Source of the DNA: Rhizobiaceae bacterium | Lineage (GTDB): Bacteria; Pseudomonadota; Alphaproteobacteria; Rhizobiales; Rhizobiaceae | Assembly (NCBI GenBank): GCA_045047085.1 | Contig: JASFYT010000034.1 | Coordinates: 2,098 to 66,097 of the forward strand | DNA length: 64,000 bases | Direction: 5' to 3' | Shown: piece by piece, positions 1,174-20,464 of the stretch | Layout of the letters: each line of letters opens with the position of its first letter | Numbering within the stretch: position 1 is the stretch's first letter | The notes under the pieces: model-generated | Database searches by the model: none | The model's input: the letters and a program-made list of their open reading frames with translations, nothing else | Told to the model about the DNA's origin: nothing | Made by a program: the position numbers and the translations under genes

Positions 1174-1235
1174 CCCCTGCTAAGGGAGTAGGCGCCAAAA
1201 GCGTCTCGAGGGTTCGAATCCCTTCCTCTCCGCCA
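1174..1235 (+). pseudogene. truncated tRNA-Ser(GCU): 3' part only (anticodon loop, long variable arm, T-arm, acceptor 3' strand, CCA)
   Basis: The sequence ...ccCTGCTAAggg agtaggcgccaaaagcgtctc gaGGGTTCGAATCCCttcctctccgCCA has the anticodon loop CU-GCU-AA, a class-II variable arm, and a GGTTCGAATCC T-loop. No D-arm or 5' acceptor strand (ggagaggaag) lies upstream, only an A-rich tract. Confidence 0.8.
1223..1235 (+). repeat. 13-nt direct repeat TTCCTCTCCGCCA, copy 1 (3' end of the tRNA-Ser fragment); candidate att core
   Basis: The identical 13-mer recurs in the same orientation at 20452..20464. Confidence 0.6.
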
Positions 1236-1439
1236 TTATTTTTCATGTAACTAATTGATTTAATTAGTTGTTTTATGAAATTACACCAAATAATGGCTAA
1301 TACGCCCTGTTTTGCTACTCATTTTGCTGCACAAATGGGTTCAAGCATTGGAATATGTCTCTTATAAAATGTGATTCTAACTTTTCCATGAGAAGGCGCC
1401 TACTCAATCATTAAAAGCCTGTCGATACTCGTCAATATG

Positions 1440-1856
1440 TCTGGATCAGCTTCCATACGAATTCTGAAACCTTGGCTTGCCAGAACTTGCCCGTGGCATG
1501 ACTGAACCTTTCGCCGTCAATCAGCAAATTAAGACCGCCTGCCCATTCTAAAGGAGGATGGACAAGCACCATACAATGATGAAATCGCATTGCGGCTTCC
1601 AAATGTTTTTGTCAACGACGATGTTAAAATCATCCACTACATCTATGACTTTGGCGATGGCTGAGATCATCAGATCAAAATGGGAAAGTTCAGCAATCCT
1701 GTTCCAAATGAACTCTTTCTAAAATTGATTAATCTTGCTTGATCCTGCCTACCCAAAGATATTTTTGGAACCGTAGAAGCCATGGCTGATCTGAAACATC
1801 CAGAACACGACGAGCTCAAACTCGATGTTCTAAAACATTTAAAAAATAGAAACTAA
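1440..1856 (+). pseudogene. decayed pRiA4b ORF-3-like (plasmid-associated family) gene
   Basis: Translation gives ...IIHYIYDFGDG*DHQIKMGK...LINLA*SCLPKDIFGTVEAMADLKHPEHDEL...; this matches the Y.YDFGDGWEHEI and CPPEDxGG blocks of that family but has in-frame stops (for example TGG to TGA in GDGW). The upstream part is frameshifted. Confidence 0.5.
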
Positions 1857-2019
1857 GAAAAACCAAATTTAGGGCGGCCACACCGGACGCTTACCTTACA
1901 AACGGAATATTGAAGAAACAAATATCCTCAAACTCCATGCGTAACTCTACTGCATCTGGTAGCAAAAAAGATGCTTTCCATCCCCCGTACAACCAACGTT
2001 GGGACTGTAAGGTCAGGCA

Positions 2020-2643
2020 TCATCGGCCAGTTACGGCGTTAAGAACTTCACCAATGCGTTGCTGTGCAATTTTCAACGGCTCTGTTTCTCCCGCCATGGA
2101 AATTCGGCCCGTGGCCCCCATCATCTGAACATCTATGAGCGTAATTTCAGGGGCGGCTTTTTCTGCTTCGTTTGCCGCCATTGCAGCAAACAAAGCCGGA
2201 GCCATTTCATAGAGGAGAAGTGACTGGCCGGGCAGGATCATCGAAGCCTCACGCATGCGGTTATAAATAACGGCATGCTGATCTGAAATATTTTCGATGA
2301 TATCGGTAAACAATATTTCGGGCTTCAACTGATCTTCCGCCTTGCAATTGATCCCCTCAAGGATGGCCTCCCCTGCCCCCATGACCACTTCACGCGCGCT
2401 CGAATGTAATTCAAGCAAGCCGAAATGGCGCTCCGTAAACAAAATCCCCGGCTCAAGATCCGGCGCTGCTTTCAACGCCAGATCAGCAATTCGGTGAATT
2501 GCAAGCGCAGGTGCAACTTCGATAATGAGGCTGTGATCACCAACAAATGGCGGATACCCCCGGGCACGGGTCGGAGTCGCCATATACGCCGCAAACTGCG
2601 GTTGTAGATCCTCAATGGGCAGATAAACACGTAACTCTGTCAT
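2020..2643 (-). CDS. BMC shell protein, tandem-domain (BMC-T-like), paralog 1
   Basis: 207 aa with two internal BMC-like repeats (EVAPALAIHRIADLALKAAPD and EMAPALFAAMAANEAEKAAPE). It is a paralog of 3711..4331 and lies in an operon with BMC-H and BMC-P genes. Confidence 0.8.
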   Translation of the reverse strand: MTELRVYLPIEDLQPQFAAYMATPTRARGYPPFVGDHSLIIEVAPALAIHRIADLALKAAPDLEPGILFTERHFGLLELHSSAREVVMGAGEAILEGINCKAEDQLKPEILFTDIIENISDQHAVIYNRMREASMILPGQSLLLYEMAPALFAAMAANEAEKAAPEITLIDVQMMGATGRISMAGETEPLKIAQQRIGEVLNAVTGR

Positions 2644-2695
2644 CTATTTTTCAATCATTCTCACATAACCGCCACGCGGCCAGCACAACAGCGTT

Positions 2696-2986
2696 TTATT
2701 TGCCAGTACCAGTATTAAAGTTAAAATGGCTGGCCAGATCAGCGTGAGGACGTGGGATCACATGAACTGATATTAACTCGCCAATTTGACCCGCTGTGTC
2801 AGCGCCCGCTTCGGTAGCAGCCTTAACAGCACCCACATCTCCCTGAATAACCACAGATACCAGACCTGCGCCCACTTCTTCACGAGACACAATTTTCACA
2901 TTGGCAGCTTTCACCATTGCATCTGCCGCAGCCAGCGCAGCCACAAAACCTTTGGTCTCAATCATTCCTATTGCTTCATTTGACAT
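2696..2986 (-). CDS. BMC shell protein, single-domain hexamer type (BMC-H, PduA/EutM-like)
   Basis: [30 protein letters not shown]... is the canonical Pfam00936-type N-terminus. The ATG at 2986 is preceded by AAGGAG. The TTG-extended ORF reaching 3004 is not needed. Confidence 0.9.
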
Positions 2987-3009
2987 TTGTTTTCTCCTTT
3001 TCAAAAAAA

Positions 3010-3252
3010 TTAATTATCATCGTCGATCGATCCGATGATCAAGGCGTCAATCGGTGCCTTGACGTTATCAAAATAGGCCGCCGCTACAGACCCTTGCACA
3101 ACCAGCACATCTTCTCCCTCACCGCAGCCAAGCGGATCGAGGGCGATAATTTCTGTGCCGTTTTCCAGCTCCACATTCAGCAATGCCCCTTGTGGCAGAG
3201 TCTCTATACGCTTTGTTGACCAAAGCCTGCCGGTAACACGTCCTCTCACCAT
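3010..3252 (-). CDS. BMC vertex protein (BMC-P, EutN/CcmL family)
   Basis: 80 aa, [29 protein letters not shown]...LVVQGSVAA...[11 protein letters not shown], the typical EutN/CcmL pattern. Confidence 0.85.
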
Positions 3253-3707
3253 TATCTCATCCTTTCAATTATTATTTTACGCAGCCTGAGGCGATCTCGC
3301 GCCAAGGGAGTAAACCGGACTGCCCGCCCAAGTCGCACAATTTTCGTCTCCTGCGGCAGTGCCTCAACTTGCCTCTCGGACAAAAATCCATTTTCAATCT
3401 GCACCACACCACCCTGCGACGCCGGTACAGGCATATCCGCCTTCAGCCCGGAAGTGCGGTCAGAAGTGGTCTTCAACCGAAAAACATGATCGCCCCTAGC
3501 GATCTTGTCTCTCATAGGCTTGTTCTGGCTGAGCTTCAAAATTTGCTGAACCAGCGATTGCAAATCATCGTCGTTGTTTATCGACACAAACTCCTCGTCT
3601 ACCGATAGTTTTGAAACAAGAGCGCGCACTTTGCGTTCTTCGGCAATGAGAGACAGTTCTTCCGCCAGTATTTCACGAATGATGGATCTGACCGCATCAG
3701 TTGTCAT
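3252..3707 (-). CDS. BMC-operon protein of unknown function with an N-terminal encapsulation-peptide-like amphipathic helix
   Basis: 151 aa, embedded between the BMC-T and BMC-P genes with stop/start overlap. Its N-terminus AVRSIIREILAEELSLI resembles the C-terminus of the adjacent aldehyde dehydrogenase. No catalytic family recognised. Confidence 0.6.
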   Translation of the reverse strand: MTTDAVRSIIREILAEELSLIAEERKVRALVSKLSVDEEFVSINNDDDLQSLVQQILKLSQNKPMRDKIARGDHVFRLKTTSDRTSGLKADMPVPASQGGVVQIENGFLSERQVEALPQETKIVRLGRAVRFTPLARDRLRLRKIIIERMR

Positions 3708-3710
3708 GGC

Positions 3711-4331
3711 TTAGGCGTCTCCATGACCATCGAAACCACCCAGTGCATATTCTGCCGCTTCTTGCGCAGCGCGAATTTCAGACTCACCGCCCGACAGATA
3801 GACGCGCCCGTTTGCACCAATCATACGATAGTCAACCACTTTGATATTGGCTGCCTTTTCCGCTTCATTTGCCGCAAGGATGGCATAAGATGCGGGTTGC
3901 ATTTCGAGCAGGTATAAGGACTCACCACCCAGCACCATCGATCCCAATTTATTCCGGTTGATCAAAAATGCATGTTGGTTATCTATACGTGTCACGATTT
4001 TCGAACCCACTATCTTGGGTTGCATTGCGTCATTGGACTCCGCGCCAAGCGCATCCAGAACCGCCTGCGCGGATTCCCGCACCGCTGATGTATCGCGGGA
4101 ATGGAATTCCAGATAACCAAATTGGCGCTCGACAACCAGAATACCGGCACGAACATCCGCATGCTTCAGCGCAATATTGGTCAGGTTTTCAATATCAAGA
4201 CCAGGAGCAATTTCGATGATTTGTGCTGCAACATTGGCGCGAGGCAAGGACCCCCTCATCCAACTGGCCATGTAAGACATGGTTTGCGGTTGTAACTGGT
4301 CGATGAATATGAATGATCGTAAATTTGCCAT
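3711..4331 (-). CDS. BMC shell protein, tandem-domain (BMC-T-like), paralog 2
   Basis: 206 aa with internal repeats EIAPGLDIENLTNIALKHADV and EMQPASYAILAANEAEKAANI. It shares the N-terminal DQLQPQ motif with 2020..2643. Confidence 0.8.
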   Translation of the reverse strand: MANLRSFIFIDQLQPQTMSYMASWMRGSLPRANVAAQIIEIAPGLDIENLTNIALKHADVRAGILVVERQFGYLEFHSRDTSAVRESAQAVLDALGAESNDAMQPKIVGSKIVTRIDNQHAFLINRNKLGSMVLGGESLYLLEMQPASYAILAANEAEKAANIKVVDYRMIGANGRVYLSGGESEIRAAQEAAEYALGGFDGHGDA

Positions 4332-4334
4332 GGG

Positions 4335-5927
4335 TCAGCCTTTCAACGCAGAGCGTAATTCTTCAGCGATGATGCGACGGATGGTTTCGCGCAATTTGTG
4401 GTCTTGCTGAGAAATAGGGCGAGCTGTAGGTTCGGGGGCCTTGAGGTTTGCACTTCTTCCTCCTGATTGTCCGGGCACACCATCAGCCGGAGCTTTTAGC
4501 AATTTTCCCCGGTGGGTCAAACTGGCCATCTGGCGCCCATCAAGGTTTCCCGCCACATCCTTGTTCCATGCAATCTTGGTCCAGTTCACCAGGTGCTGCG
4601 GACCAACATTTTCACCGACAGATGAACGGCCAAAATAACCGGTGCCTATTGTGAAAGTTGGAGCGAGATTGGTTGCAAAACCAGCAGCTCCCTGACTGCA
4701 TGGCGCGTTGACAATTACACGGTACACTTCAACACTGGCGGCGTAATCCATGATGATTTGATCATCGTTTGCATGAATGGCTGCAGAGTGCCCTGCCCCG
4801 GTATAGCGCAGTAAAGCGCGCGCTTGTTTCATCACTTGCGAATGGCTATTCGCCACATAATATCCCAGTACCGGACAAAGTTTTTCGCGCGAAAGCACTT
4901 CGCCTACCCCGATCTTGTCGATTGGCGTGATGAGAACTTTGGTTTTACGAGGCACTTTGAACCCGGCCTGTTCGGCAATCCACGACGCATCGCGCCCCAA
5001 AGCTTCCACATTAAATCCACGCTGGTGAAACAAATAATTGCGCAGCAACTCGACTTCGTTTGGTTTGCAGATATGACATCCGGCGCGATCCAGTTCGCGC
5101 ATCAATTGGGCCGAAATCTCTTTCAAAGTGATCAACACCGACTCGTTGGTACACAAAACCGAATTGTCAAATGACTTGCTATCGGAGATGAACTTCGCTG
5201 CCTGCTTCAGATCAGCACTCGTATCCACAAAAACCGGAGCATTGCCGGGGCCGACCCCAATCGCCGGGTTGGAGGAAGAATAGGCTGCCCGCACCATGGC
5301 GCTGCCGCCCGTGGCAAGAATAACATTTGTCTTGTCCGACTTCATGAATTCGTCGATCAGCAAAAGGTTGGGATGTTCAATGACCTGAATGACAGCTTCC
5401 GGCGCACCTGCTGCCTCAGCAGCTTTTATCAATGTATTGACCGCATCAACAGAGCATTCACGCGCTGCGGGATGAGGGCTGACTACAATTGCGTTACGGG
5501 TCATCAGGGCGCACAACACCTTGAAATAAATTGTAGCAATCGGATTGGTAGATGGTGCAAGCGCAAAAACCACACCTGCGGGTCTCGGTACTTCGATGAT
5601 GTTGGTTTCTGCATCAAATCTCGGGTTCACAAAATCCCGATCCCGGTAATGTTCAACCAGCGGTAATGCGGAAAGTTCGTTTTTCAGCGTCTTATGTTCG
5701 GCAACGCCAAATCCGGTTTCTTTGACCGCCCAGTCGCCATACTTTCCAGCATTTTCATGGGCAGCTTTTGCCACTGCATCTGCGATGGCGAGTGTTGATT
5801 CTCGATCATAACGTTGAAAGACCTGAGATGCCCATCTCGCACGTTCCAGCGTCATATCGGCGGCAGCCCGTAACGCTGCGTCTGTGGCACTTATATCGAC
5901 GAGTTTTGCAATCGACAGATCCATCAC
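4335..5927 (-). CDS. CoA-acylating aldehyde dehydrogenase (EutE/PduP-like) with a C-terminal extension ending in an encapsulation-peptide-like helix
   Basis: 530 aa with the SFDNSVLCTNES catalytic-Cys block and an ATGGSAMV NAD-binding region. A roughly 60-aa Pro/Gly-rich tail ends in KLRETIRRIIAEELRSALKG. Confidence 0.85.
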   Translation of the reverse strand: MMDLSIAKLVDISATDAALRAAADMTLERARWASQVFQRYDRESTLAIADAVAKAAHENAGKYGDWAVKETGFGVAEHKTLKNELSALPLVEHYRDRDFVNPRFDAETNIIEVPRPAGVVFALAPSTNPIATIYFKVLCALMTRNAIVVSPHPAARECSVDAVNTLIKAAEAAGAPEAVIQVIEHPNLLLIDEFMKSDKTNVILATGGSAMVRAAYSSSNPAIGVGPGNAPVFVDTSADLKQAAKFISDSKSFDNSVLCTNESVLITLKEISAQLMRELDRAGCHICKPNEVELLRNYLFHQRGFNVEALGRDASWIAEQAGFKVPRKTKVLITPIDKIGVGEVLSREKLCPVLGYYVANSHSQVMKQARALLRYTGAGHSAAIHANDDQIIMDYAASVEVYRVIVNAPCSQGAAGFATNLAPTFTIGTGYFGRSSVGENVGPQHLVNWTKIAWNKDVAGNLDGRQMASLTHRGKLLKAPADGVPGQSGGRSANLKAPEPTARPISQQDHKLRETIRRIIAEELRSALKG

Positions 5928-7201
5928 CGTACCTTCTTCCGGTTGGAACCCATAATTTCCTCGGACGCCAGACCGATTGCAATTTCCACACGGGTCAGCA
6001 AATCTTCACACAGGCTTTGTGTCATCAATATACCCGGTTTGAATTGCAAAACACTTGGATCAAGGGTTGAAAATATCGCCCATACACCATGCTCGTAAAG
6101 GTGCCTCATTACCGGCTTCGCGCCCTCAGGGTCATTGAATTCCAGCCCTAAAATAACACCATTTTGCCGAATGCCCGTGAAGAAATCCGGGTAGAGCGCC
6201 TGAATATCGTCGAGCCCCGCACGGATAAAGTCAGAAACATAACGCACCATCGTGGCAACTTCCGGCCTCTGAGTTATTTCAAGCACTTTCAGCGCGACAA
6301 TGCAGCCAAGTTCTGCTCCCCCTGTGGTGGACATGTGAGCAAAGCCATCCTGCTTCAACCACTGCCCTGCCCGCTCGTTAACAACACAACACGAAATTGG
6401 ATACATGCCGCCGGTAATGCCCTTACCGATCACCATGATATCTGGTGTAACGCCGTATTTGGTAATGCCCCAAAGTTCGCCTGTACGCATTAATCCGGTC
6501 TGCACTTCATCAGCTATATAGAGCGCATCAAACCGCTCGCACAGGCTTTTTACGGCAGGCAGATAGCCCTCATTTGGCATTGGAAAACCATAGGTGGCCG
6601 GGATCGTTTCCATGATGACAGCGGCAACATCCCTTCCTCTCAACGCATCTTCCATTGCATCAAGATCATTGAATGGCACTTGAATAAATTCCCCAAGCGT
6701 ATCTTCTGACAAAAACATTTCGGAAAATCGCTCATCGCCTGTTTTAACAGCCAGACCGGAGTGTCCGTGATAAGCTTTGATAATCGAAACAATTTTGCGT
6801 TTTTGGGTTGCGTGCCGCGCAGATTTTATTGCCAGCTCCACGGCCTCAGCACCACCTGCCCCATAAATGGTATATTGCAGACCATCGGGTGTGCAGTCAG
6901 CCAAGGCCTCAGCCAAGGCCGTTCGGGCCAAAGCTGGAAAATGATGATTGCCCATATCAAAACGTTTTGCACCGGCATTCAATACTTCGATCAGTTCTGC
7001 ATTGCGATGGCCCAGATTATAGGTGCCGCCGTTGAGATGCACATCAATCAGGCGCTTGCCATCTAAATCATAGAGGCAATATCCTTCACGGCGATCAATC
7101 ACCAGATCGACGCCAACATCCTGCCAGAACTGGGTTTTATCCGGGTTCCAGAAAGCTTTCGACTGCTCCAGGAATTCCAGTTTTTCTGCACTCACAAGCA
7201 A
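5924..7201 (-). CDS. class-III aminotransferase-fold PLP enzyme; probable amino-alcohol-phosphate phospho-lyase
   Basis: 425 aa with DEVQTGLMRTGELWG and DIMVIGKGITGG (PLP-Lys) blocks. A 4-nt ATGA overlap links it to the AldDH gene. Pairing with an APH-type kinase is the known kinase/phospho-lyase arrangement. The lyase assignment, as opposed to a transaminase, is inference. Confidence 0.75.
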   Translation of the reverse strand: MLVSAEKLEFLEQSKAFWNPDKTQFWQDVGVDLVIDRREGYCLYDLDGKRLIDVHLNGGTYNLGHRNAELIEVLNAGAKRFDMGNHHFPALARTALAEALADCTPDGLQYTIYGAGGAEAVELAIKSARHATQKRKIVSIIKAYHGHSGLAVKTGDERFSEMFLSEDTLGEFIQVPFNDLDAMEDALRGRDVAAVIMETIPATYGFPMPNEGYLPAVKSLCERFDALYIADEVQTGLMRTGELWGITKYGVTPDIMVIGKGITGGMYPISCCVVNERAGQWLKQDGFAHMSTTGGAELGCIVALKVLEITQRPEVATMVRYVSDFIRAGLDDIQALYPDFFTGIRQNGVILGLEFNDPEGAKPVMRHLYEHGVWAIFSTLDPSVLQFKPGILMTQSLCEDLLTRVEIAIGLASEEIMGSNRKKVR

Positions 7202-7246
7202 ACACCTCTCAACATCCTGACAGGGTGCCTGAGTAATCGGCTAAGT

Positions 7247-7336
7247 ACTTGACACATAGAGATATAAACTTGACAGAGAACGCGCGCGCAACAAGCTATT
7301 TGCACAATGTCAAATGTCACCGCTTCATTGTCAAGT
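7247..7336. promoter_or_regulatory. four ACTTGACA-type boxes in the divergent BMC/kinase intergenic region (candidate operator and -35 elements)
   Basis: ACTTGACA lies at 7247..7254 and 7268..7275 on the plus strand. ACTTGACA at 7336..7329 and ATTTGACA at 7315..7308 lie on the minus strand. Both pairs are spaced exactly 21 bp and are arranged as a mirror image. Confidence 0.5.
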
Positions 7337-7395
7337 GATGTGGGGCATAACCATTTACCGTCGAGACATAAACAAGATGGTCGGATACGGAATAT

Positions 7396-8409
7396 ATGTC
7401 AGAATTTGATGATTTGTCCCATGAGGAGCAATTAATTTGCTTGAAGCATCTCGCGGATGCGGCCCTTGCCCATTTTCACCTGCCCATGGGCGTCACTTCT
7501 TATCTAATCAACCTATCAGAAAATGCCACCTACAAGGTTGAAGATCCTCGCACCTCCAAGTGCTGGGCCATGCGAGTCCATCGGGAAGGCTATCACACAA
7601 AAGACGTGATCTACTCCGAGTTGGCTTGGGCAAAGGCCCTGCGAGAAAGTGGTGCAGCGATTACACCAATCGCGCTGCCGGGCCTCGATGGAGATATCAT
7701 TCAGACAGTATCTCATGAAAGCCTGCCGAATTCGCGGCATGTGGTACTTTTTGAATGGGAAACTGGCGTTGAACCTTCTGAGGAAGACGATGACCTGCGG
7801 GCACCTTTCGAGGTACTTGGTGAAACCACAGCACACATGCATAAACACGTAAAATCGTGGAAATTACCAGAAAATTTTAGACGTCCAGTCTGGGATTTTG
7901 AAACTTCACTGGGATCGACCCCTCTTTGGGGGCGATGGCGCGATGGCATGGGCCTCGATAAAAATCGCATGCAGCTGTTCCATGAAACGGTGAACTTGAT
8001 AGAGCAACGGCTCGAAAAATTCGGAAAAGCACAAGAACGGTTCGGCTTGATTCATTGTGATATGCGTCTAGCCAATCTGCTGATTGACGGTGATGTAACC
8101 AAAGTAATTGATTTCGATGATTGTGGCTTTAGCTGGCTGATGTACGATTGTGCTACCACAGTATCCTTTTTCGAGAACAAACCTGAAGTCCCGGACTTAC
8201 TAAAATCATGGGTGAAAGGTTACCGCAAAGTCATCGACCTTCCAATGGAGGATGAAGCGGAAATTCCCACTTTTGTCATGCTGCGCAGATTGTTGCTTGT
8301 GGCCTGGATCGGCTCCCATTCAGAGACAGATCTTGCCCAGTCGATGGGGGTGACCTACAGCAAGGAAACAGATGCCCTTTGTCGCAATTATATTGCTGAT
8401 TTTAGTTGA
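7396..8409 (+). CDS. aminoglycoside-phosphotransferase-fold kinase (probable amino-alcohol kinase)
   Basis: 337 aa with the Brenner motif HCDMRLANLL and the metal-binding IDFDDCG. It is divergently transcribed from the BMC operon. Confidence 0.8.
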   Translation: MSEFDDLSHEEQLICLKHLADAALAHFHLPMGVTSYLINLSENATYKVEDPRTSKCWAMRVHREGYHTKDVIYSELAWAKALRESGAAITPIALPGLDGDIIQTVSHESLPNSRHVVLFEWETGVEPSEEDDDLRAPFEVLGETTAHMHKHVKSWKLPENFRRPVWDFETSLGSTPLWGRWRDGMGLDKNRMQLFHETVNLIEQRLEKFGKAQERFGLIHCDMRLANLLIDGDVTKVIDFDDCGFSWLMYDCATTVSFFENKPEVPDLLKSWVKGYRKVIDLPMEDEAEIPTFVMLRRLLLVAWIGSHSETDLAQSMGVTYSKETDALCRNYIADFS

Positions 8410-10575: not shown

Positions 10576-10609
10576 GTGATTTCCTTCTTCATTTATTCAT
10601 ATGTGAGAT

Positions 10610-12306: not shown

Positions 12307-12310
12307 TATT

Positions 12311-13387: not shown

Positions 13388-13530
13388 GAGGCCTCCGCGC
13401 CCGTCATACTTAGAGCACAATCTGAAAAGTGATAACCGGGTTTCAGATTGCGCTTTAAAATAAAATGCCCTAGGTCAGGAACTCTAATGAGCCCTGACCC
13501 AAGTAAACTTAAAATTGAAATCCAAAAAAC

Positions 13531-14688
13531 TTAGGTTTTTCGCTCACGTTTTGCGGCAGAATACAAATCGTACATTTCCGCGTAATCTGGGTTGATATCG
13601 TAATCAACAGAATTGCCCATTTCCTGCTCAATGGAATCCCATTGCACCGCATCCAATTCTTCTTTCGAGAAGGTGCTCAAAACATCCTGAGAACCCATTT
13701 GAGTTACAGGATTGTATGTTCCTTCGGCAAATGCAACTTTCTTGGAAACGTTAGGGCGCTGAACATACTCAAGAAAATCCTCAGCCAGACCAGATGGGTC
13801 AGGGTTGTTAACGACAGACGTCAACTCAATCCACACGATGCCGCCCTTGCCATCCATTGGGCCAGAATTTGGCGTAATGCCACGAATGTTTTTTGCACCA
13901 TCAAGACGTGCTGGCGATGCCGTATAGGTGCCACCAGTGAAATACGCATCGATTTCGCCATTGATCAAGGCAAGGTTCATTGCAACAAGATCGTCGGTCA
14001 AATTTTTTGCACCATTGAAAATTTGTTTGGCAACTTCACCAAATTTGGTGATTTCCGCTTTGGTATGTTTTTTGAACGGATGAATGTCGGCCGCGATGCA
14101 CATATGATAAATATTCCAGTTATCATACGTCAAAATGCCGTAACGCCCCTTCATTGCAGGATCAAGGAATAACTTGAAGCCCTGATCTTCCGCCAATTTT
14201 CTACTAATTTTATCCGTATTGACCACAAAAGAAAATGGGCCGAAACGCTGTGTCATGCCCAGCAAATCTTTACCGGAAGCATCCATCGCCCATTTATAGG
14301 GTGGCTTAAATGCTGGCATCATCTTGTCGTAATATGGCTCAAAACGTTCACGGGAAATAGGCTTGATCAAACCTTCGGGGAACATCTGCTCGCGTGCCCA
14401 TGGATTGTTTAGATTGATGATATCCCAAACCTTGGTTTCACCAGCGCGCAATCTGTTCACCGCATCCGGATCAGAGGTCAGCCCCTCTGCGCGAACCTTG
14501 GCTCCGAACTCTTTGCGGAACGGGTCAAGCACTTCATCGGAATTATACCCTTCCCAGCAATAAATGTTTAATTCCTTGTCACGCGCAGCATTAGCGATGT
14601 TCGGAAATGCACCGATTGACGCGGCAGCAGCGGCATATACGCCTGTCTGCTGCAAAAAATTACGTCGTGAAAGTGGGTATTTCAGCAT
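13531..14688 (-). CDS. periplasmic solute-binding protein (PotD/PotF-like) with a twin-arginine signal
   Basis: MLKYPLSRRNFLQQTGVYAAAAASIGAFPNIANA signal, followed by a polyamine-binding-like fold (LNIYCWEGY...). The ATG at 14688 has an RBS. Confidence 0.8.
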   Translation of the reverse strand: MLKYPLSRRNFLQQTGVYAAAAASIGAFPNIANAARDKELNIYCWEGYNSDEVLDPFRKEFGAKVRAEGLTSDPDAVNRLRAGETKVWDIINLNNPWAREQMFPEGLIKPISRERFEPYYDKMMPAFKPPYKWAMDASGKDLLGMTQRFGPFSFVVNTDKISRKLAEDQGFKLFLDPAMKGRYGILTYDNWNIYHMCIAADIHPFKKHTKAEITKFGEVAKQIFNGAKNLTDDLVAMNLALINGEIDAYFTGGTYTASPARLDGAKNIRGITPNSGPMDGKGGIVWIELTSVVNNPDPSGLAEDFLEYVQRPNVSKKVAFAEGTYNPVTQMGSQDVLSTFSKEELDAVQWDSIEQEMGNSVDYDINPDYAEMYDLYSAAKRERKT

Positions 14689-14940
14689 TATCTCTCTCCC
14701 TGTGGGCAAATCATCCCTGGAGGTGATTTCAAACAATCAACACTCCATTTGGCTTGCTATCCTGATTCAATTTGTATTTTACATCCGTGCCAACAAAAAA
14801 ATAAAGTATCAGCAAGACGCAATATCAATCTCCATCCAAGATAAGATTAATATATTCACCGCCGTTTCGTCTTGACATCAGACGCACTGGATTTGACACT
14901 TCCATACCGCTTCGGGCCAATTGGATATTCAAATAAATAT

Positions 14941-15636
14941 TTAGTGCAAATCCATCATTTCTTTTAACTCGCCGCTGCTGACCACATGACAGTAAATCAT
15001 ATTCATAATCTCCAGTTCCCTTTCATGCAGCTCATCGCTTCCGGCGGCACAACAATCTTCAACCACCACCACGTTAAAACTCTCATCAGCCAAACTTCTC
15101 ACCGTTGATGAGATGCATTGGTCTGTGAAAATTCCGCAACATATGACGTTTTTGATACCCAAATTGTGCAGGATCAATCTTAGATTGGTTCCTGTCAGCG
15201 CAGAATCTGTTGTTTTGGTTACGATAATTTCATCCCCCACCGGAGAAAGATCAGGCACCAATTGCGATGGTTTCAGGTTTTTCGGCAACAACAAATTATT
15301 CCATCCGGGCATTTTCTGACTGAGCGAACGGTCTCGCCCATCATCTGTGTGGCATGCAATGCGGGCAAATATGCATTCAACTCTGGCGTCGCGAAACAGC
15401 TTCAACAGCTCGGCAGTCCTGGGGATCACCTGCCTGTTCATACGATCATGAAATGGCGTCCATGCATCATATTCCACACGCGCATCATTTGACAGACCGC
15501 TTGTATCCGGACGCTCCAGATAGGTGTTTTGCACGTCAATGACCAAGAGTGCGGTTTCCGCAGGCTTGAGATCAAGATCATCTGGCTCGGGCGCATTTCG
15601 ATAGTAAATCGAGCGATAGGCTGTTTTCCAATTCAT
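14941..15636 (-). CDS. isochorismatase-family (cysteine) hydrolase
   Basis: 231 aa with LLVIDVQNTY and CGIFTDQCISSTVRS (catalytic Cys context). It lies 18 nt downstream of the dehydratase small subunit. Confidence 0.75.
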   Translation of the reverse strand: MNWKTAYRSIYYRNAPEPDDLDLKPAETALLVIDVQNTYLERPDTSGLSNDARVEYDAWTPFHDRMNRQVIPRTAELLKLFRDARVECIFARIACHTDDGRDRSLSQKMPGWNNLLLPKNLKPSQLVPDLSPVGDEIIVTKTTDSALTGTNLRLILHNLGIKNVICCGIFTDQCISSTVRSLADESFNVVVVEDCCAAGSDELHERELEIMNMIYCHVVSSGELKEMMDLH

Positions 15637-15654
15637 CAGGAGATTCCGTTTCGG

Positions 15655-16083
15655 TTAGTATCTGGTGGTGAACAAACCGCGTTGTTCATAAACCTCGGCG
15701 GCCTCTTCAATGAACTCAGCCATCCGTTCTGCCTGATAGGTAGTCCTTAATTTCTCAGATATCTCCAACAATACAGATTTGTCTTTTGCCCGGCCGGGTC
15801 TCAAAAACTCATAAATTTCCATCAAATAATCTTGCGGAATATTCGTAAGCTCAGAGGCACGATTAAAATTATCTCCAAGTTTTGGTCGATTGCAATCACG
15901 TGCTATATCCGCCTGCATCTCCAAAGCTTGACTGGTGATCCGGAAATCATCCATGACTACATCCCCACGCTCAACAGCGGCAAGATCAAGTTCACCGAGC
16001 TGTTTTCCTCGCTGGCCCAGAACAAGATCGGGGCGATTTTCCGCCAATGGGTAATCCTTGGCACCAAGCCTATTATTGTCCAA
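15655..16083 (-). CDS. pduE: B12-dependent diol/glycerol dehydratase small (gamma) subunit
   Basis: 142 aa. DYPLAENRPDLV...DDFRITSQALEMQADIA...LGDNFNRASELTNIPQDYLMEIYEFLRPGR matches the PduE/DhaB3 pattern. Confidence 0.85.
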   Translation of the reverse strand: MDNNRLGAKDYPLAENRPDLVLGQRGKQLGELDLAAVERGDVVMDDFRITSQALEMQADIARDCNRPKLGDNFNRASELTNIPQDYLMEIYEFLRPGRAKDKSVLLEISEKLRTTYQAERMAEFIEEAAEVYEQRGLFTTRY

Positions 16084-18379
16084 TATTGTTCTCCAAAAAT
16101 TTAATTTCGATTTCTTCGGGTGTGCGATCTTCCCCCGTCAAAGAGGTTTCAATTGCATAAATCAAGGCAACACGGGCGTGAAACCTTGCGCCCAGCGCTT
16201 CCCCGCGCGTTGGAACGACAACAGGTTCCGGCAAGGTGTCGTTGGCGTAATCACCTGCATTTTCTCCAAGTTTTCGATAATGTTCCAACCGGGTAATTGG
16301 AGCGTTAGAGAACAGCTCCAGATTATTGTGCGGCAAACGATCAATGTGATGGATCACAGCGGTTCCTTTTGCCTGAATGCCAATTCCGATCCCCGATCCT
16401 GCCATGCTTGCGGCACTCAGCCCCAAAAACGAAGTATCCGCGGTATGGTGAAAACGAACGATTCGGGCATGGCATCCCTTGGCCTCAATTCCGCTAATCA
16501 ATTCGCGCAAAACCTGTGCAAGGGAATGATCCGCAAGCGTACGAAAAAGTTTCAAACCAAAGGCCGGGCTAATGCCGATGACAATTTCATCGCTCTGACT
16601 GCCGCGTTCTGCCTGACCAATTTTTTTATAAGCAATTTGAGTGGATTCTTTTGGTTCGAAAGATTGCTCCACATGGAGAACAGCATCACGATTGAGTTGA
16701 TCGCGTATATTGATGATTTCGTTGCGGCGTTGTTCTGACAACTGATAGCCTGTGCCGGGGCCGCTGTAATTATTGGGATCATTGATGGCAGAAATTACCT
16801 GACCATTTCGGATGATTGCGGATGTTTGCAGGTAATCGCCCGATACCCGGAGCTTCACCAAAGACAACAAATGTTCAGCCTCCTTTGTAAACCCGCGTGC
16901 GGCCAGTGCTTTGATTACATCAACAACATTTATGCCACGATCCTTGATCTTGTCGCTGATGATTGCGACCTCTCGGGGCATGTAACTATCAGTCTCGTCC
17001 GACCCGGAAGCGGCCACCACGCTGCTTTTCATCGCGGCAGTTGGCGATCCCAAATCCAGTTCCTCAAATACCGCAGACAAAACATCAATGGCGCGACTGC
17101 GCAGATCAAGAATTTCAGTCTCGCCAATGGGGGTGAGACCACCATCAGCTTCAAAGTCACGTTGGAGAACCAGAAAATCTTCCATCTCTTCCCCGTTGAA
17201 GAGCGAAGCATTGAAAGAATTATCATATTTCAATATTGTGCCAAATCCTGAGCAAATGAAATCTGACCCTGCCATCAGGTAGGGAAGAATTTTGGCTCCT
17301 ATGCGAATTTCAGATTCGGAACTTCTTGCGTCATTACCGGAAGCACACTCTAAATCCAGCCAGACAGCGATGAGGTTTTCCGCTAGCAATTCACGCACCC
17401 CGCCAGCAATACTGGCTGCAAGCGGAGCGCCATCAATTCCGCCATTTTGAGTGCCCTGCGCACCCATGGCGCGCTGCATGCACAAACAACGCGCCTCAAG
17501 ATAAAGCAGAGATTTGGATTCATGAAACCCCATCAACAGTTCAGACCCTGCACCTGACGTGCAGCGCATTTTGATCCCGCGCGAAGCGTAAGCCGTTGTT
17601 AAAAATGCTTTGGACCACGGCGTATCATCCCCATCGATAAAAGCTTTCTCGGTGCCATACACGGAAACAGTTTCTGCGTATGAGGTAAATCCCGCCATGC
17701 CAATTTGAAGCTCTTCAGCTTCTTCACTAGAACATTGAAACAAGGTTCCCCAGCGACCAACCGCAGCCCCCACACAGCAGGCCAATGCATTCGACCATGC
17801 ATTACGCGACACACGCATGGTGGTCTCAATTTCATCAAATCCAAATGCAACCGCCGTAGCCGCATCAGCTACCAACTGCAGCGGATCATCCTTGGCGTTT
17901 GTGACATGTCCCTGATTTCCAGGCGTCTTGCGAGCACGCATTTTTGAATAGGCAAAGGTCAACTCCATGGCGGTTAAGTGGGCAACCACTTCTGTCAATT
18001 TTGCTGGTGTCATCCCATGCGCAAGCTTAACCAGATCAGCGCGCGGTACATGCATATCAACAAGCATACGGGCAACTTCCTGCGAAGGCATTGCCATCAT
18101 TGCAACGGTTGTTTCAGCATCGAGATGATGCCGGGCAATGAACAAATCGATCATATCGAAGTCTGCCTCCGCCACCCCGTCCATCGATACAACTCGACCG
18201 TCGTGAACCACGACACCCGGACTAGGGTCACGGGCCCCGTTCATTGCCGAAAACCCGTTTTCGGGATCATCAACGGCAAAATTATCGAGCCGCAAAGGTC
18301 GGTCGTCCCATTGAGAAAACCGTCTCCACCTATTGGGTTTTTGTGACATTGACTGGTCCATTCTACGCCCTCTCGACAT
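16073..18379 (-). CDS. B12-dependent diol/glycerol dehydratase, fused large (alpha) and medium (beta) subunits
   Basis: 768 aa. Residues up to about 555 follow PduC (GNQGHVTNAKDDPLQL, SYAETVSVYGTE, DDTPWSKAFL, ASGND, LQRDFEADGGL, GDYLQTSAI, GPGTGY). The C-terminal ~200 aa follow PduD (IVIGISPAFG...GSGIGIGIQAKGTAVIH...NLELF). Confidence 0.85.
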   Translation of the reverse strand: MSRGRRMDQSMSQKPNRWRRFSQWDDRPLRLDNFAVDDPENGFSAMNGARDPSPGVVVHDGRVVSMDGVAEADFDMIDLFIARHHLDAETTVAMMAMPSQEVARMLVDMHVPRADLVKLAHGMTPAKLTEVVAHLTAMELTFAYSKMRARKTPGNQGHVTNAKDDPLQLVADAATAVAFGFDEIETTMRVSRNAWSNALACCVGAAVGRWGTLFQCSSEEAEELQIGMAGFTSYAETVSVYGTEKAFIDGDDTPWSKAFLTTAYASRGIKMRCTSGAGSELLMGFHESKSLLYLEARCLCMQRAMGAQGTQNGGIDGAPLAASIAGGVRELLAENLIAVWLDLECASGNDARSSESEIRIGAKILPYLMAGSDFICSGFGTILKYDNSFNASLFNGEEMEDFLVLQRDFEADGGLTPIGETEILDLRSRAIDVLSAVFEELDLGSPTAAMKSSVVAASGSDETDSYMPREVAIISDKIKDRGINVVDVIKALAARGFTKEAEHLLSLVKLRVSGDYLQTSAIIRNGQVISAINDPNNYSGPGTGYQLSEQRRNEIINIRDQLNRDAVLHVEQSFEPKESTQIAYKKIGQAERGSQSDEIVIGISPAFGLKLFRTLADHSLAQVLRELISGIEAKGCHARIVRFHHTADTSFLGLSAASMAGSGIGIGIQAKGTAVIHHIDRLPHNNLELFSNAPITRLEHYRKLGENAGDYANDTLPEPVVVPTRGEALGARFHARVALIYAIETSLTGEDRTPEEIEIKFLENNIGQ

Positions 18380-18601
18380 CCAAATTTTATCGCCAGAATG
18401 TCGTCAACATTTTATAATCGTCAAGGAATTTTTTATTTCGAGCCATTCTCGATGATCTTTTGGCCACAAAACAAATGCTTGATTTTTCGGTAAATACACT
18501 TGTAAAAGCGGAGATATAACGCGTTTGTAATTTTTCCTGTGCAAAAAATATCCTCAAAATATTAGGCAGAAATACCTCAAAAAAATAAATGGAAACCAAC
18601 T

Positions 18602-20077
18602 ATGAAATCTGAATTATTCATCAATGGATCATGGGTCGCGGCGCATTCGGGCAAAAAATTCGAAGTGGTCGACCCGGCAACAGAACAAGTGTTCCATCAT
18701 GTTTCTTCGGCAGGAAAAAAAGATATCGACGACGCGGTTTTGGCCGCGCGTCGGGCATTTGATACGGGGCCATGGCCAAAAATGAATGGCACAGAACGGG
18801 CAGTGATTCTTCGAAAAATGGCTGACGAAATTGAAGCCCGAACTTTAGAGCTGGCGCAACTGGAAGTTCGAAACAATGGCAAGCCACTGGCGGAAGCAAT
18901 TTGGGATATTGAAGATACAGTCGGTTGTTTTGCATTTTATGCAAATTTGGCGGAAGAGCATCACAGTATTCAAGATGAAAAAATCAAACTAGACGATGAC
19001 CGATTCACTAGCATTGTTGTGAAAGAACCCGTCGGTGTTGTCGGGGCAATTATTCCGTGGAATTTTCCAATGTTGATGGCTGCCTGGAAGATCGCGCCTG
19101 CTCTTGCTGCTGGCTGCACAATTATTCTCAAGCCCTCTGAAGTGACGCCATTAACTGCCCTTGAATTGGGCGAAATTGCCCAAAAATCGGGCCTGCCCGA
19201 CGGCGTACTGAACATTGTTACAGGCTTTGGTCCCACCGCGGGGCAGCCTCTTTGCGAACACCCCGGCGTCGATAAACTTGCGTTCACCGGCTCTGTTTTA
19301 ACCGGTTCACGCATCATGCAAACGGCGGCAAAAGACATCAAAAACCTGTCGTTGGAACTTGGTGGAAAATCGCCTTTTGTTATTTTTGGTGACGCTAATA
19401 TCGACGACGCAGTCGAGTGGATAATGTTCGGAATTTTCTGGAATCAGGGGGAAGTATGCTCCGCCACATCGCGCGTTCTGGTGGAACAATCAATCTACGA
19501 ACCACTGCTTGAACGTCTGAGCGAAGAGGCAAAAAAAATTACCATCGGCAATGGTGCAGATGAGGGAATTTTACTCGGTCCAATTGTCAATAAAGCCCAG
19601 TTTGAAAAGGTCCTCACACACATAGAAAATGGCAAGAATTCGGGCGCGCGATTGGTCACTGGCGGCGGTCGGGTTGCCGCGATGAACAAGGGCTATTTTA
19701 TCGAACCGACAATCTTTGCAGACGTCGAGGAAACTGCTGATATTTGGCGGGAAGAAATTTTCGGGCCGGTGGTCTGTGTCAAATCTTTTGTTACAGAAGA
19801 AGAGGCGATCCGATTGGCCAATGACAGTGACTACGGTCTTGCAGCGGCAGTCATGTCAAAAGATGACGAGCGTTGCGAGCGGGTCGCCCGTGCTTTCCGC
19901 GCTGGCATCGTTTGGATAAATTGCTCACAACCTACCTTTGTCGAGGCCCCTTGGGGAGGTTACAAAAAATCAGGAATCGGTCGCGAATTGGGTCGATGGG
20001 GATTTGAAAACTATCTGCAAGAAAAGCAAATTACCCGATTTGCCAGCACCAAACCTTGGGGTTGGTATCTCAAATAG
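18602..20077 (+). CDS. NAD(P)-dependent aldehyde dehydrogenase (BetB/aminoaldehyde-DH-like, non-acylating)
   Basis: 491 aa with ELGGKSP, EEIFGPV, and the catalytic GEVCSATSR. Confidence 0.9.
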   Translation: MKSELFINGSWVAAHSGKKFEVVDPATEQVFHHVSSAGKKDIDDAVLAARRAFDTGPWPKMNGTERAVILRKMADEIEARTLELAQLEVRNNGKPLAEAIWDIEDTVGCFAFYANLAEEHHSIQDEKIKLDDDRFTSIVVKEPVGVVGAIIPWNFPMLMAAWKIAPALAAGCTIILKPSEVTPLTALELGEIAQKSGLPDGVLNIVTGFGPTAGQPLCEHPGVDKLAFTGSVLTGSRIMQTAAKDIKNLSLELGGKSPFVIFGDANIDDAVEWIMFGIFWNQGEVCSATSRVLVEQSIYEPLLERLSEEAKKITIGNGADEGILLGPIVNKAQFEKVLTHIENGKNSGARLVTGGGRVAAMNKGYFIEPTIFADVEETADIWREEIFGPVVCVKSFVTEEEAIRLANDSDYGLAAAVMSKDDERCERVARAFRAGIVWINCSQPTFVEAPWGGYKKSGIGRELGRWGFENYLQEKQITRFASTKPWGWYLK

Positions 20078-20451
20078 ATACCACATATCCCGTTTTTCAA
20101 GGCAAAAACCCTGCTCAGATTCGAGCGGCGGATGCTCCATTTTGGCAAACATACAATGCCCAAGCATGCAGTCTCTAGTCGGGCCAATTTAAGAAAGCTG
20201 CCCATCGCCTCCGTTGTTATGGCTAATTCGACAATGCCCACATCCAACAGTTCGAGGACATATTCCGATTTTCCTTAATTCAGATAGCTGCGAACTTCAA
20301 GAAAGCCATTTGCAAAAACTTCCAACCAAACACAGCAGCAAAATATGAGCCATAGTACATGTTATCCTGATCCATCATTTTTAATATTCAAGAGGCCGTA
20401 CAATACTATATTGCTGCTCACTTTAAATATTCAGAATTTTAATAAACGGAT

Positions 20452-20464
20452 TTCCTCTCCGCCA
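20452..20464 (+). repeat. 13-nt direct repeat TTCCTCTCCGCCA, copy 2
   Basis: Exact copy of the tRNA-Ser 3' terminus at 1223..1235. It sits in an AT-rich non-coding stretch just before the IS3 element. Confidence 0.6.

What the first reader, a model, noticed from the sequence alone, without database searches (positions are those of the whole stretch)
1174..20464. tRNA-Ser 3' fragment and an exact 13-nt repeat of the tRNA terminus bracket a ~19-kb island carrying the BMC, importer, and diol dehydratase
Seen in the sequence: 1174..1235 is only the 3' two-thirds of a tRNA-Ser(GCU), running from the anticodon loop to CCA, with no 5' half. Its last 13 nt (TTCCTCTCCGCCA) recur in the same orientation at 20452..20464, within AT-rich non-coding DNA. 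At equal base frequencies, a specified 13-mer is expected about 0.002 times by chance in 64 kb read on both strands.

Established knowledge: islands that integrate at tRNA 3' ends leave displaced partial tRNA copies as direct repeats downstream of the intact gene.

Inference: an intact tRNA-Ser probably lies to the left of the window. The interval 1236..20451 would then be a (possibly second, tandem) integrated island that has since lost its integrase. The interval holds the BMC locus, AraC, SDR, Pot-like importer, fused diol dehydratase, and ALDH. The only mobile-element relic inside it is the pRiA4b ORF-3-like pseudogene at its left edge, and IS3 elements follow immediately on the right.
Basis: partly seen in the sequence, partly recalled or inferred. 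Interest (0 to 1): 0.7.

Follow-up and report, generated by a model that had tools for sequence, protein, structure and literature searches.

The report
tRNA-Ser integration scars flanking metabolic block
A leftover piece of a serine tRNA gene shows that a mobile element inserted just left of this window, and a 13-base echo of its tip 19 kb away hints, without proving, that the metabolic gene block in between arrived earlier the same way; either way this is an ordinary kind of bacterial genomic island.

Summary
Both observations are real. Window 1173-1235 (+) is the exact 3' 63 nt, from the anticodon stem to CCA, of a tRNA-Ser(GCU). Its last 13 nt recur exactly at 20452-20464 (+) in non-coding DNA.

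The 63-nt piece is best read as the displaced tRNA end (attR type) of a low-GC element lying to the left of the window (confidence about 0.85). A provirus in IMG/VR shows the same layout with a 65-nt copy.

Whether 1236-20451 is a second, older island stays open (about 0.5).

- **For:** an end-anchored, correctly oriented 13-mer is expected only 0.001-0.004 times by chance. It sits in junk DNA beside IS3 debris, near the edge of synteny with an 87% relative. A provirus on the same tRNA has a 17-nt terminal repeat.
- **Against:** there is no integrase or any mobility gene. Composition matches the right flank. Two other chance 13-14-nt matches to the same tRNA end occur in the window. Six related contigs carry the same gene cluster with no tRNA, and their breakpoints (about 2040-2080 and 18435) differ from 1235 and 20452. 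No empty site could be found.

The kind is known and novelty is low.

The parts
1..1172 (-). Right end of a low-GC element lying mostly left of the window. It holds a gene start at 171 that runs off the window, a TIGR04255-family ('sporadically distributed') gene at 171-1034, and an A-rich spacer at 1035-1172.
   Evidence: TIGR04255 E 2.3e-34. GC is 0.40, and the tetranucleotide distance to the right flank is larger than every equal-length null window. The TIGR04255 CDS has GC 0.404 against 0.46-0.52 for all other CDS tested.
1173..1235 (+). Displaced 3' fragment of tRNA-Ser(GCU): 63 nt, from tRNA position 28 to CCA. It is an attR-type scar of an integration at the anticodon-loop site.
   Evidence: 100% identical to the 3' part of the intact tRNA in L009. 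No intact tRNA in the window. A 65-nt analogue sits next to a tyrosine integrase in proviral contig L113/L117.
1223..1235 (+). Copy 1 of the 13-mer TTCCTCTCCGCCA: the last 2 nt of the T stem, the acceptor 3' strand, the discriminator and CCA.
1236..2019 (+). Decayed non-coding stretch (GC 0.40) with a pRiA4b ORF-3-like pseudogene at about 1390-1853. Its main frame, 1533-1853, has two in-frame stops.
   Evidence: PF07929 E 1.4e-7 after reading through one stop. The GC is typical of intergenic DNA in this window. The stretch is collinear down to 1735 with a relative that is 95.5% identical over its whole contig (93% in this non-coding part), L090.
2020..8409 (-). RMM-type microcompartment locus. 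It encodes a CcmP-like BMC-T (2020-2643), BMC-H (2696-3004), BMC-P (3010-3252), a 151-aa ORF, a second BMC-T (3711-4331), an aldehyde dehydrogenase (4335-5927), a class-III aminotransferase-fold enzyme (5924-7201) and, on the + strand, an APH-family kinase (7396-8409).
   Evidence: The closest plasmid-borne BMC-T is in Rhodococcus jostii RHA1, 65% identical. RMM and RMM2 are defined in PMC4207490.
8558..18379 (-). AraC regulator (+ strand), SDR, PotABCD-like ABC importer, isochorismatase-family hydrolase, and a diol dehydratase with a small subunit and fused large+medium subunits.
   Evidence: This part alone is syntenic with L001 (window 8537-18435).
18602..20077 (+). Betaine-aldehyde/aminobutyraldehyde-type aldehyde dehydrogenase. 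It is not part of the cluster conserved in relatives L001 and L007.
   Evidence: A 96% identical homologue exists in a relative.
20078..20451 (.). AT-rich non-coding DNA (GC 0.41) with no recognisable gene remnant.
20452..20464 (+). Copy 2 of the 13-mer. It is a candidate distal scar of an older integration at the T-stem/acceptor junction, or a chance match.
20734..21959 (+). IS3-family element, a pseudogene. It has 28-nt TG...CA terminal inverted repeats, OrfA at 20776-21072, and an OrfB broken by an in-frame TGA. The 3-nt flanks (gcc and atc) are not a target duplication.
22009..22277 (+). Second, heavily deleted IS3-family remnant (OrfA-like at 22015-92). Position 22277 is also where synteny with the 87% relative L093 ends.

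Best explanation
The window opens at a tRNA-Ser(GCU) integration hot spot that seems to have been used twice.

Layer 1 (shown, about 0.85). A low-GC element lies to the left, mostly outside the window. Its tyrosine integrase crossed over at the anticodon loop of the tRNA gene. The element brought its own copy of the tRNA 3' part, which restores the gene at the far (left) end. The original 63-nt 3' piece was pushed to the element's right end, where it now sits at 1173-1235.

Layer 2 (inferred, about 0.5). Before that event, a different integrase inserted another element at the junction of the T stem and the acceptor stem of the same tRNA. That crossover needs only about 13 nt of identity: a 7-bp overlap plus the 6 nt that complete the tRNA. 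It would leave TTCCTCTCCGCCA at both ends of the insert. The remnant of that insert is 1236-20451. It has lost its integrase and all mobility genes, so it can no longer move. It has the same composition as the neighbouring DNA. It carries an RMM2-like microcompartment, importer and diol dehydratase cluster, plus an aldehyde dehydrogenase. IS3 elements later landed in the junk DNA to its right.

The left element's integrase could not use the 13-mer, because the 13-mer lacks the anticodon-loop crossover region. The two layers are therefore independent events and not one composite element.
For: Layer 1:
- The fragment is an exact 63-nt identity to an intact tRNA-Ser(GCU).
- The breakpoint is at the 5' strand of the anticodon stem. 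It lies within 2 nt of the breakpoint of a 65-nt copy next to a tyrosine integrase in a proviral contig that also holds the intact gene.
- Anticodon-centred sites are one of the known crossover subsites (PMC4383910).
- The only compositionally foreign coding DNA lies left of the fragment, and it is a 'sporadic' TIGR04255 gene.

Layer 2:
- The 13-mer is exact, ends precisely at CCA, has the right orientation and lies downstream. Its chance expectation is 0.001-0.004.
- It lies in the roughly 8% of the window that is non-coding, whereas the two other matches of this size lie in or at coding DNA.
- It starts 2 nt inside the T stem, at the 'J' subsite of Islander.
- Provirus L116 on the same tRNA has an integrase abutting the tRNA and a 17-nt end-anchored repeat 11 kb downstream.
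- DRs of 12-98 bp are reported in a Rhizobiaceae species.
- Both edges of the interval are junk or pseudogene DNA, and IS3 debris follows.
- The backbone shared with the 87% relative ends at 22277. With the two IS3 elements removed, that is about 320 nt from the 13-mer.
- The cluster has at least four different sets of neighbours in relatives, so it does move.
Against: - There is no integrase, excisionase, transfer or phage gene, and no detectable remnant of one, in 1236-20451. Islander would reject the candidate, and it calls tandem arrays only when each member has its own integrase. All 88 tRNA-integrated elements of S. meliloti had one.
- GC and tetranucleotide usage of the interval match the right flank better than any equal-length control window does.
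- Two other matches of 13-14 nt to the same tRNA end occur in the window where 0.04-0.14 were expected. Pyrimidine-rich strings like this are therefore commoner here than the models say.
- 13 nt is at the short extreme for such repeats. The 3 nt upstream (GAT against CCC) rule out a decayed 16-17-nt repeat.
- None of six related contigs with the cluster shows a tRNA, the 13-mer or an integrase. Their synteny ends (about 2040-2080 and 18435) leave 1236-2019 and 18436-20451 outside the conserved unit.
- If the block predates the split from the 87% relative, where non-coding identity is 78%, a perfect 13-nt scar has only about a 0.2 chance of surviving.
- The intact tRNA to the left was not seen.
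Confidence: 0.5

Rival explanations
1. There was only one integration, the element to the left. The 13-mer at 20452 is a coincidence. Then 1236-20451 is simply the variable neighbourhood downstream of the tRNA: a catabolic cluster native to this lineage or moved by other means, with pseudogene and IS debris around it.
For: - No mobility gene or remnant is present.
- Composition is identical to the right flank.
- There are 56 families of direct repeats of at least 13 nt in the window.
- Two further chance matches of equal size hit the same tRNA end, at 6629-6641 inside a CDS and at 12299-12312.
- The cluster sits in core-like contexts (nar genes, the pst/pho operon, purine catabolism) without any tRNA in relatives.
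- The breakpoints in relatives do not coincide with 1235 and 20452.
- No arm-type or terminal repeats are shared by the two ends beyond chance.
Against: It needs an event with expectation of about 0.001-0.004, and about ten times less if the non-coding location is required. The match ends exactly at the tRNA terminus, is in the right orientation and on the right side, and sits beside IS debris at a synteny edge. The 13-mer was never seen outside tRNA genes in about 2 Mb of comparison DNA.
Confidence: 0.38
2. The 63-nt piece is not a chromosomal scar but the attP of an element that is not integrated here, meaning the contig itself is a plasmid or excised element. Alternatively, it is a tRNA gene truncated in place by a deletion.
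For: An attP for a tRNA site also holds only the 3' part of the tRNA (PMC4383910). Low GC is found on both sides of the piece (1-1172 and 1236-2019). A pRiA4b ORF-3-like pseudogene, a family named after a plasmid, lies next to it.
Against: No integrase lies within 1.1 kb to the left or anywhere to the right. The low GC of 1236-2019 is ordinary for non-coding DNA in this window. No plasmid in PLSDB resembles the region. The breakpoint matches the anticodon-type att breakpoint seen in a provirus, which a random deletion would not be expected to do.
Confidence: 0.07

Closest known systems
tRNA-integrated genomic islands and tandem arrays as defined by Islander (Hudson, Lau & Williams 2015, PMC4383910)
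   Same: The signature is a tRNA gene plus a displaced 3' fragment in the same orientation with the island in between. The crossover subsites are at the anticodon loop (matching the 63-nt piece) and at the T-stem/acceptor junction (matching the 13-mer). Arrays form by repeated use of one tRNA.
   Different: The intact tRNA is outside the window. The candidate second island has no integrase, which Islander requires of every array member.
IMG/VR provirus IMGVR_UViG_2886942716_000001 (L116) at tRNA-Ser(GCU)
   Same: It has the same tRNA 3' end and an end-anchored short direct repeat (17 nt, TCCCTTCCTCTCCGCCA) 11 kb downstream in the same orientation.
   Different: A tyrosine integrase starts 8 nt after the tRNA, and capsid and terminase genes are present. 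The repeat is 4 nt longer. The window interval has none of these genes.
IMG/VR provirus IMGVR_UViG_3300034631_000008 (L113/L117)
   Same: It holds an intact tRNA-Ser(GCU) plus a 65-nt 3' copy that begins 2 nt upstream of where the window's 63-nt piece begins.
   Different: Its integrase ends 10 nt before the fragment. In the window the gene next to the fragment is a TIGR04255-family gene.
Prophages and genomic islands in tRNA genes of Sinorhizobium meliloti (PMC11476347)
   Same: The host family (Rhizobiaceae) matches the label on the source MAG. Direct repeats of 12-98 bp are derived from a tRNA end.
   Different: All 88 elements carried an integrase.
Integrase-less, att-flanked remnants (CIMEs of Streptococcus thermophilus) and the 17-bp Phe-tRNA repeat of the Mesorhizobium symbiosis island. 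Both are recalled from my own knowledge and were not checked here.
   Same: They are att-flanked cargo without a recombinase, sitting next to a newer element at the same tRNA, with a short terminal tRNA repeat.
   Different: A CIME shares its att site with the neighbouring element and can be mobilised with it. Here the two repeats use different crossover sites, so the left element's integrase could not act on the 13-mer.

Membership tests
tRNA-integrated genomic island (Islander criteria), applied to 1236-20451 | A 3' end fragment of the tDNA at the distal end: end-anchored, in the same orientation and downstream | tested here: met
   The 13-mer at 20452-20464 ends at CCA and is on the + strand like the fragment. 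It is only 13 nt long.
tRNA-integrated genomic island (Islander criteria), applied to 1236-20451 | The fragment does not overlap a conserved protein domain | tested here: met
   It lies in non-coding DNA, and no Pfam hit covers any frame across it.
tRNA-integrated genomic island (Islander criteria), applied to 1236-20451 | A tyrosine integrase gene inside the candidate (each member of a tandem array needs its own) | tested here: not met
   All ORFs are assigned to metabolic, shell, transport or regulator families. No PF00589 hit and no remnant were found at either edge.
tRNA-integrated genomic island (Islander criteria), applied to 1236-20451 | An intact cognate tRNA gene at the proximal end | not testable with these tools
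   Only the 63-nt fragment is in the window.
tRNA-integrated genomic island (Islander criteria), applied to 1236-20451 | Length between 2 and 200 kb | tested here: met
   19,216 nt
Genomic island by comparative criterion (empty site in a relative) | A related genome lacks the block, with its junction exactly at the repeats | tested here: inconclusive
   Relatives at 74-77% nt identity carry the cluster elsewhere, with breakpoints at about 2040-2080 and 18435. The 87% relative's contig ends in an IS after 22277. The 95.5% relative's contig stops at 1735. No empty site was found.
Genomic island by composition (a typical feature, not a defining one) | GC or oligonucleotide usage differs from the flank | tested here: not met
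   GC is 0.480 against 0.479. The tetranucleotide distance of 0.088 is below all equal-length control windows.
Displaced tRNA fragment of an anticodon-site integration, applied to 1173-1235 | Uninterrupted identity to the tRNA from the anticodon stem to the 3' end, with unrelated DNA on the 5' side | tested here: met
   63 of 63 nt are identical to the L009 tRNA and the upstream bases differ. The breakpoint class is the same as in L117.
Displaced tRNA fragment of an anticodon-site integration, applied to 1173-1235 | Foreign DNA with an integrase between the fragment and the intact gene | tested here: inconclusive
   The 1.17 kb visible to the left is compositionally foreign and encodes a sporadically distributed family. 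The integrase and the tRNA would lie outside the window.
Cis-mobilisable integrase-less element (CIME-like) | Both of its att sites are substrates of the neighbouring element's integrase | tested here: not met
   The 13-mer lacks the anticodon loop and stem where the 63-nt repeat's crossover must lie. This is read from the sequence and is an inference about the recombinase.
IS3 family, applied to 20734-21959 | TG...CA terminal inverted repeats, OrfA (HTH) and OrfB (rve), and a 3-4 bp target duplication | tested here: inconclusive
   The IRs and both ORF families are present. OrfB is broken by a stop, and the flanks gcc and atc are not a duplication.

The most novel reading that the evidence does not exclude
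The 19-kb RMM2-like microcompartment, importer and diol dehydratase block would be an integrase-less, mobilisable metabolic island. It would spread among marine alphaproteobacteria by borrowing, in trans, an integrase that recognises the 13-nt T-stem/acceptor junction of tRNA-Ser. This would explain why the same cluster sits in a different neighbourhood in every relative.
Probability: 0.07. Interest if true: 0.5.

Novelty: new member of a known kind. Interest (0 to 1): 0.25.

Why it matters
If the second layer is real, it dates and delimits how a Rhizobiaceae-like marine bacterium acquired a whole microcompartment-based catabolic module. The module is RMM2-like, a locus type first described only in Actinobacteria. 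It would also be an example of tandem use of two different crossover sites in one tRNA gene. If the second layer is not real, the case is a caution: a short tRNA-end repeat without an integrase or an empty site cannot define an island. Either way the mechanism, tyrosine-recombinase integration at a tRNA gene, is textbook.

Tried and rejected
1. Fetching the DNA left of the window. Exact-protein look-ups for three window proteins and for the 100% identical RpiB returned nothing. The source could only be named: an NCBI MAG labelled 'Rhizobiaceae bacterium', with a 99,862-nt contig and proteins MFK5978695.1, MFK5978712.1 and MFK5978713.1.
2. An exact 59-nt tRNA pattern in 185,579 species genomes gave no match. 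In metagenomes it gave one unrelated 58%-GC contig with the intact tRNA but no synteny.
3. A search for an empty site via TpiA in species genomes. The best hits were only 75-77% identical at the amino-acid level. One of 80 loci (Rubellimicrobium) has a tRNA-Ser(GCU) on the corresponding side, which is about what chance gives.
4. PLSDB plasmids. There was no similar DNA apart from a piece of IS3.
5. The junction sequences of a putative attL and attR in IMG/VR gave no match. The TIGR04255 protein had no relative in IMG/VR, and PADLOC gave no hit.
6. Integrase or other remnants in six-frame pieces of 1236-2030, 20070-20740 and 21955-22420. Only the pRiA4b pseudogene and an IS3 OrfA remnant turned up.
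7. Arm-type or terminal repeats shared by the two ends. Two inverted 10-mers were found (p about 0.05), but there was no extended alignment above shuffles, so they were dropped as noise.
8. Terminator and promoter scans at both junctions were uninformative.
9. A decayed longer fragment at 20402-20451 was rejected, with 9 of 50 positions identical.
10. Similarity between the tail of the 87% relative's contig and window 1-2100 or 20000-22276. None was found.

Full report
**Observation**

The window has no intact tRNA by ARAGORN or by Rfam at gathering thresholds. Positions 1173-1235 on the + strand nevertheless read as the 3' part of a class II tRNA. The elements in order are the anticodon stem 3' strand and loop (CT-GCT-AA), a 6-bp variable arm, the T arm, the acceptor 3' strand CCTCTCC, the discriminator G and CCA.

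A metagenome scan with 59 nt of it found one contig (L009) with an intact 91-nt tRNA-Ser(GCU). The last 63 nt of that tRNA are identical to window 1173-1235.

The 13-mer TTCCTCTCCGCCA occurs exactly at 1223-1235 and 20452-20464 on the + strand and nowhere else, even with two mismatches. It does not extend on either side. The 50 nt before 20452 match the tRNA at 9 of 50 positions, so it is not a decayed long fragment.

**How unlikely is the 13-mer?**

For the pre-specified terminal 13-mer, Markov models of order 0-5 give 0.0011-0.0023 same-strand copies per 64 kb. Extrapolating from the four end-anchored 8-9-mers on the + strand gives about 0.004.

The number is less impressive if any part of the fragment may match:
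- The expectation is 0.03-0.04 by model, or about 0.14 from the observed fraction of positions with a 13-mer twin (0.28%).
- The window has 56 families of direct repeats of at least 13 nt.
- Two other same-strand matches hit the same pyrimidine-rich tRNA end. One is ATCCCTTCCTCTC at 6629-6641 inside the aminotransferase gene. The other is TCCGCCATTATTTT at 1229-1242 and 12299-12312, at the junction of two transporter genes. Both are certainly chance, and both are in or at coding DNA.

The copy at 20452 differs from those two. It ends exactly at CCA, lies in AT-rich non-coding DNA (GC 0.41) and lies downstream in the right orientation. Outside tRNA genes the 13-mer was absent from about 2 Mb of other loci.

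**The 63-nt fragment**

Established knowledge (Islander paper, PMC4383910) is that an element integrating into a tRNA gene carries a copy of part of the gene. The gene is then restored at one end and the original piece is displaced to the other. The known crossover subsites are the anticodon loop, the T loop and the T-stem/acceptor junction.

A fragment starting at the 5' strand of the anticodon stem fits the first subsite. IMG/VR supplies a direct analogue. One 53-kb proviral contig holds an intact tRNA-Ser(GCU) (L113) and a 65-nt 3' copy (L117) that starts 2 nt upstream of the window's start. A tyrosine integrase (PF00589, E 1.6e-15) ends 10 nt before that copy.

In the window, the DNA left of the fragment encodes a TIGR04255 'sporadically distributed' protein. 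It has GC 0.40, and its tetranucleotide distance from the right flank exceeds every control window. Its CDS (GC 0.404) is the only coding outlier, the others being 0.46-0.52.

I conclude with about 0.85 confidence that the fragment is the right-end scar of an element lying to the left. This could not be verified, because the DNA left of the window was not retrievable.

**The 19-kb interval**

Its content is entirely metabolic:
- An RMM-type microcompartment locus: two CcmP-like BMC-T proteins, BMC-H, BMC-P, an aldehyde dehydrogenase, a class-III aminotransferase-fold enzyme and an APH kinase.
- An AraC regulator, an SDR, a PotABCD-like importer and an isochorismatase-family hydrolase.
- A diol dehydratase with fused large and medium subunits plus a small subunit.
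- A second aldehyde dehydrogenase.

No recombinase, transfer or phage gene is present. Six-frame pieces of both edges give only the pRiA4b ORF-3-like pseudogene (PF07929, E 1.4e-7).

GC (0.480) and tetranucleotide usage are indistinguishable from 22000-64000 (GC 0.479). The distance of 0.088 is below all equal-length controls. The low GC of 1236-2019 is normal for non-coding DNA here.

**Relatives**

The source is an NCBI MAG labelled Rhizobiaceae bacterium. No species-representative genome is close: TpiA is at most 77% identical, and the 59-nt tRNA pattern is absent.

Metagenome contigs at 74-77% nt identity carry the same cluster in the same order (L006, L007, L008, L091, L092), or only its AraC-to-dehydratase half (L001). 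Their neighbours are different each time:
- YkuD plus the pst/pho operon
- nar genes
- MerR and glyoxalase
- DUF1485
- purine catabolism, and cupin/GST/TetR

None of these contigs has a tRNA or the 13-mer. Synteny ends at about 2040-2080 and at 18435, so 1236-2019 and the ALDH region are not part of the conserved unit.

A contig that is 95.5% identical (L090) is collinear down to 1735 and then ends.

On the right, an 87% relative (L093) is collinear from 32381 to 22277. It then diverges into a different IS3-family transposase, where its contig ends.

In the window the DNA between 22277 and the 13-mer consists of:
- an IS3 OrfA remnant (22015-92)
- an IS3 pseudogene with 28-nt inverted repeats but no target duplication (20734-21959)
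- about 320 nt of unassigned DNA

None of these comparisons is a true empty site.

**Weighing**

For a second, older integration:
- The terminal, oriented, non-coding 13-mer has a low chance probability.
- Its start, 2 nt inside the T stem, is the junction subsite. There 13 nt would be a 7-bp overlap plus the 6 nt needed to complete the tRNA.
- Provirus L116 on the same tRNA has the integrase abutting the gene and a 17-nt terminal repeat 11 kb away.
- Repeats of 12-98 bp are reported in S. meliloti.
- Both edges of the interval are junk DNA, IS debris follows, and a synteny edge is nearby.
- The cluster is evidently mobile among relatives.

Against:
- No integrase is present, whereas Islander requires one and all 88 S. 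meliloti elements had one.
- There is no compositional signal.
- 13 nt is at the short extreme for such repeats.
- Two chance matches of equal size occur in the same window.
- No tRNA association of the cluster was seen in six relatives.
- If the block predates the split from the 87% relative, as the 96% ALDH homologue hints, a perfect neutral 13-mer is only about 20% likely, given 78% non-coding identity.

My rough odds come out near even. I put 0.5 on the two-layer reading and 0.38 on coincidence. A further 0.07 goes to the fragment being an attP or a truncated gene, and the rest is unassigned.

The two repeats use different crossover sites. The left element's integrase therefore could not act on the 13-mer, so the pair is not a composite or CIME-like unit (inference).

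**Comparison and novelty**

The feature is a member of a well-known kind: tRNA-targeted integrative elements and their scars. Layer 1 meets the testable criteria. Layer 2 fails the integrase criterion and lacks comparative proof, so it should not be filed as an island, only as a candidate remnant.

Nothing here is mechanistically new. The cargo is RMM2-like (PMC4207490) and lies outside Actinobacteria. It is of some interest but is a separate matter. Interest is 0.25.

Noticed in passing
window 2020-18379: The cargo is an RMM2-like locus: an RMM microcompartment plus diol dehydratase. Axen et al. 2014 (PMC4207490) described this type only from Rhodococcus and Mycobacterium. Here it sits in a Rhizobiaceae-labelled MAG, joined to a PotABCD-like importer, an SDR, an isochorismatase-family hydrolase and a fused large+medium dehydratase subunit. 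The same 16-kb gene order recurs in many marine alphaproteobacterial metagenome contigs. The closest plasmid-borne BMC-T is on a Rhodococcus jostii RHA1 plasmid (65% identity).
   Followed up: partly
window 6629-6641 and 12299-12312: Two further exact same-strand matches to the tRNA 3' end region. One is 13 nt inside the aminotransferase CDS. The other is 14 nt spanning the tRNA end plus flank, at a transporter gene junction. Together they are more than Markov models predict (0.04 expected). This is probably because pyrimidine-rich strings are enriched on the antisense strand of genes.
   Followed up: partly
window 20734-21959 and 22009-22277; L093 10750-10913: An IS3 pseudogene without a target-site duplication lies next to a second, gutted IS3 remnant. 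The 87% relative has a different IS3-family transposase at the same place downstream of rpiB. The end of the erythritol-type locus is therefore a recurrent IS landing or rearrangement site.
   Followed up: partly
window 22415-41077 and 45370-57151: There are two separate polyol/erythritol-type catabolic loci. They encode FGGY kinases, glycerol-3-phosphate-dehydrogenase-like enzymes, TpiA and RpiB, SorC/DeoR-type regulators and sugar ABC transporters. The first is 86-88% identical at nt level to contig L093.
   Followed up: no
L121 54-266 (IMG/VR): An intact tRNA-Ser(GCU) is followed 97 nt later by a 28-nt copy of its T loop-to-CCA end. This looks like a T-loop-type att scar with almost nothing left between the repeats.
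   Followed up: no
L116 10135-10146 (IMG/VR): Inside the provirus with the 17-nt terminal repeat there is also a 12-nt end-anchored copy of the tRNA tip. End-anchored 10-12-mers also occur about six times more often than uniform expectation in 2 Mb of GC-rich comparison DNA. Short tRNA-tip matches below about 13 nt therefore carry little weight.
   Followed up: partly
window 1250-1277: Right after the tRNA fragment there is an AT-only hairpin (AACTAATT-GATTT-AATTAGTT) followed by GTTTTAT. It may be the terminator of the tRNA gene, supplied by whichever DNA originally followed the gene. The consensus scan does not call it because it has no G-C pairs.
   Followed up: no
L077 18378-18467 (Rubellimicrobium thermophilum): This is the only one of 80 TpiA loci with a tRNA-Ser(GCU) within 10 kb. 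The tRNA is on the same side and in the same orientation as inferred for the window, with IS elements directly downstream of it. The count is compatible with chance.
   Followed up: partly
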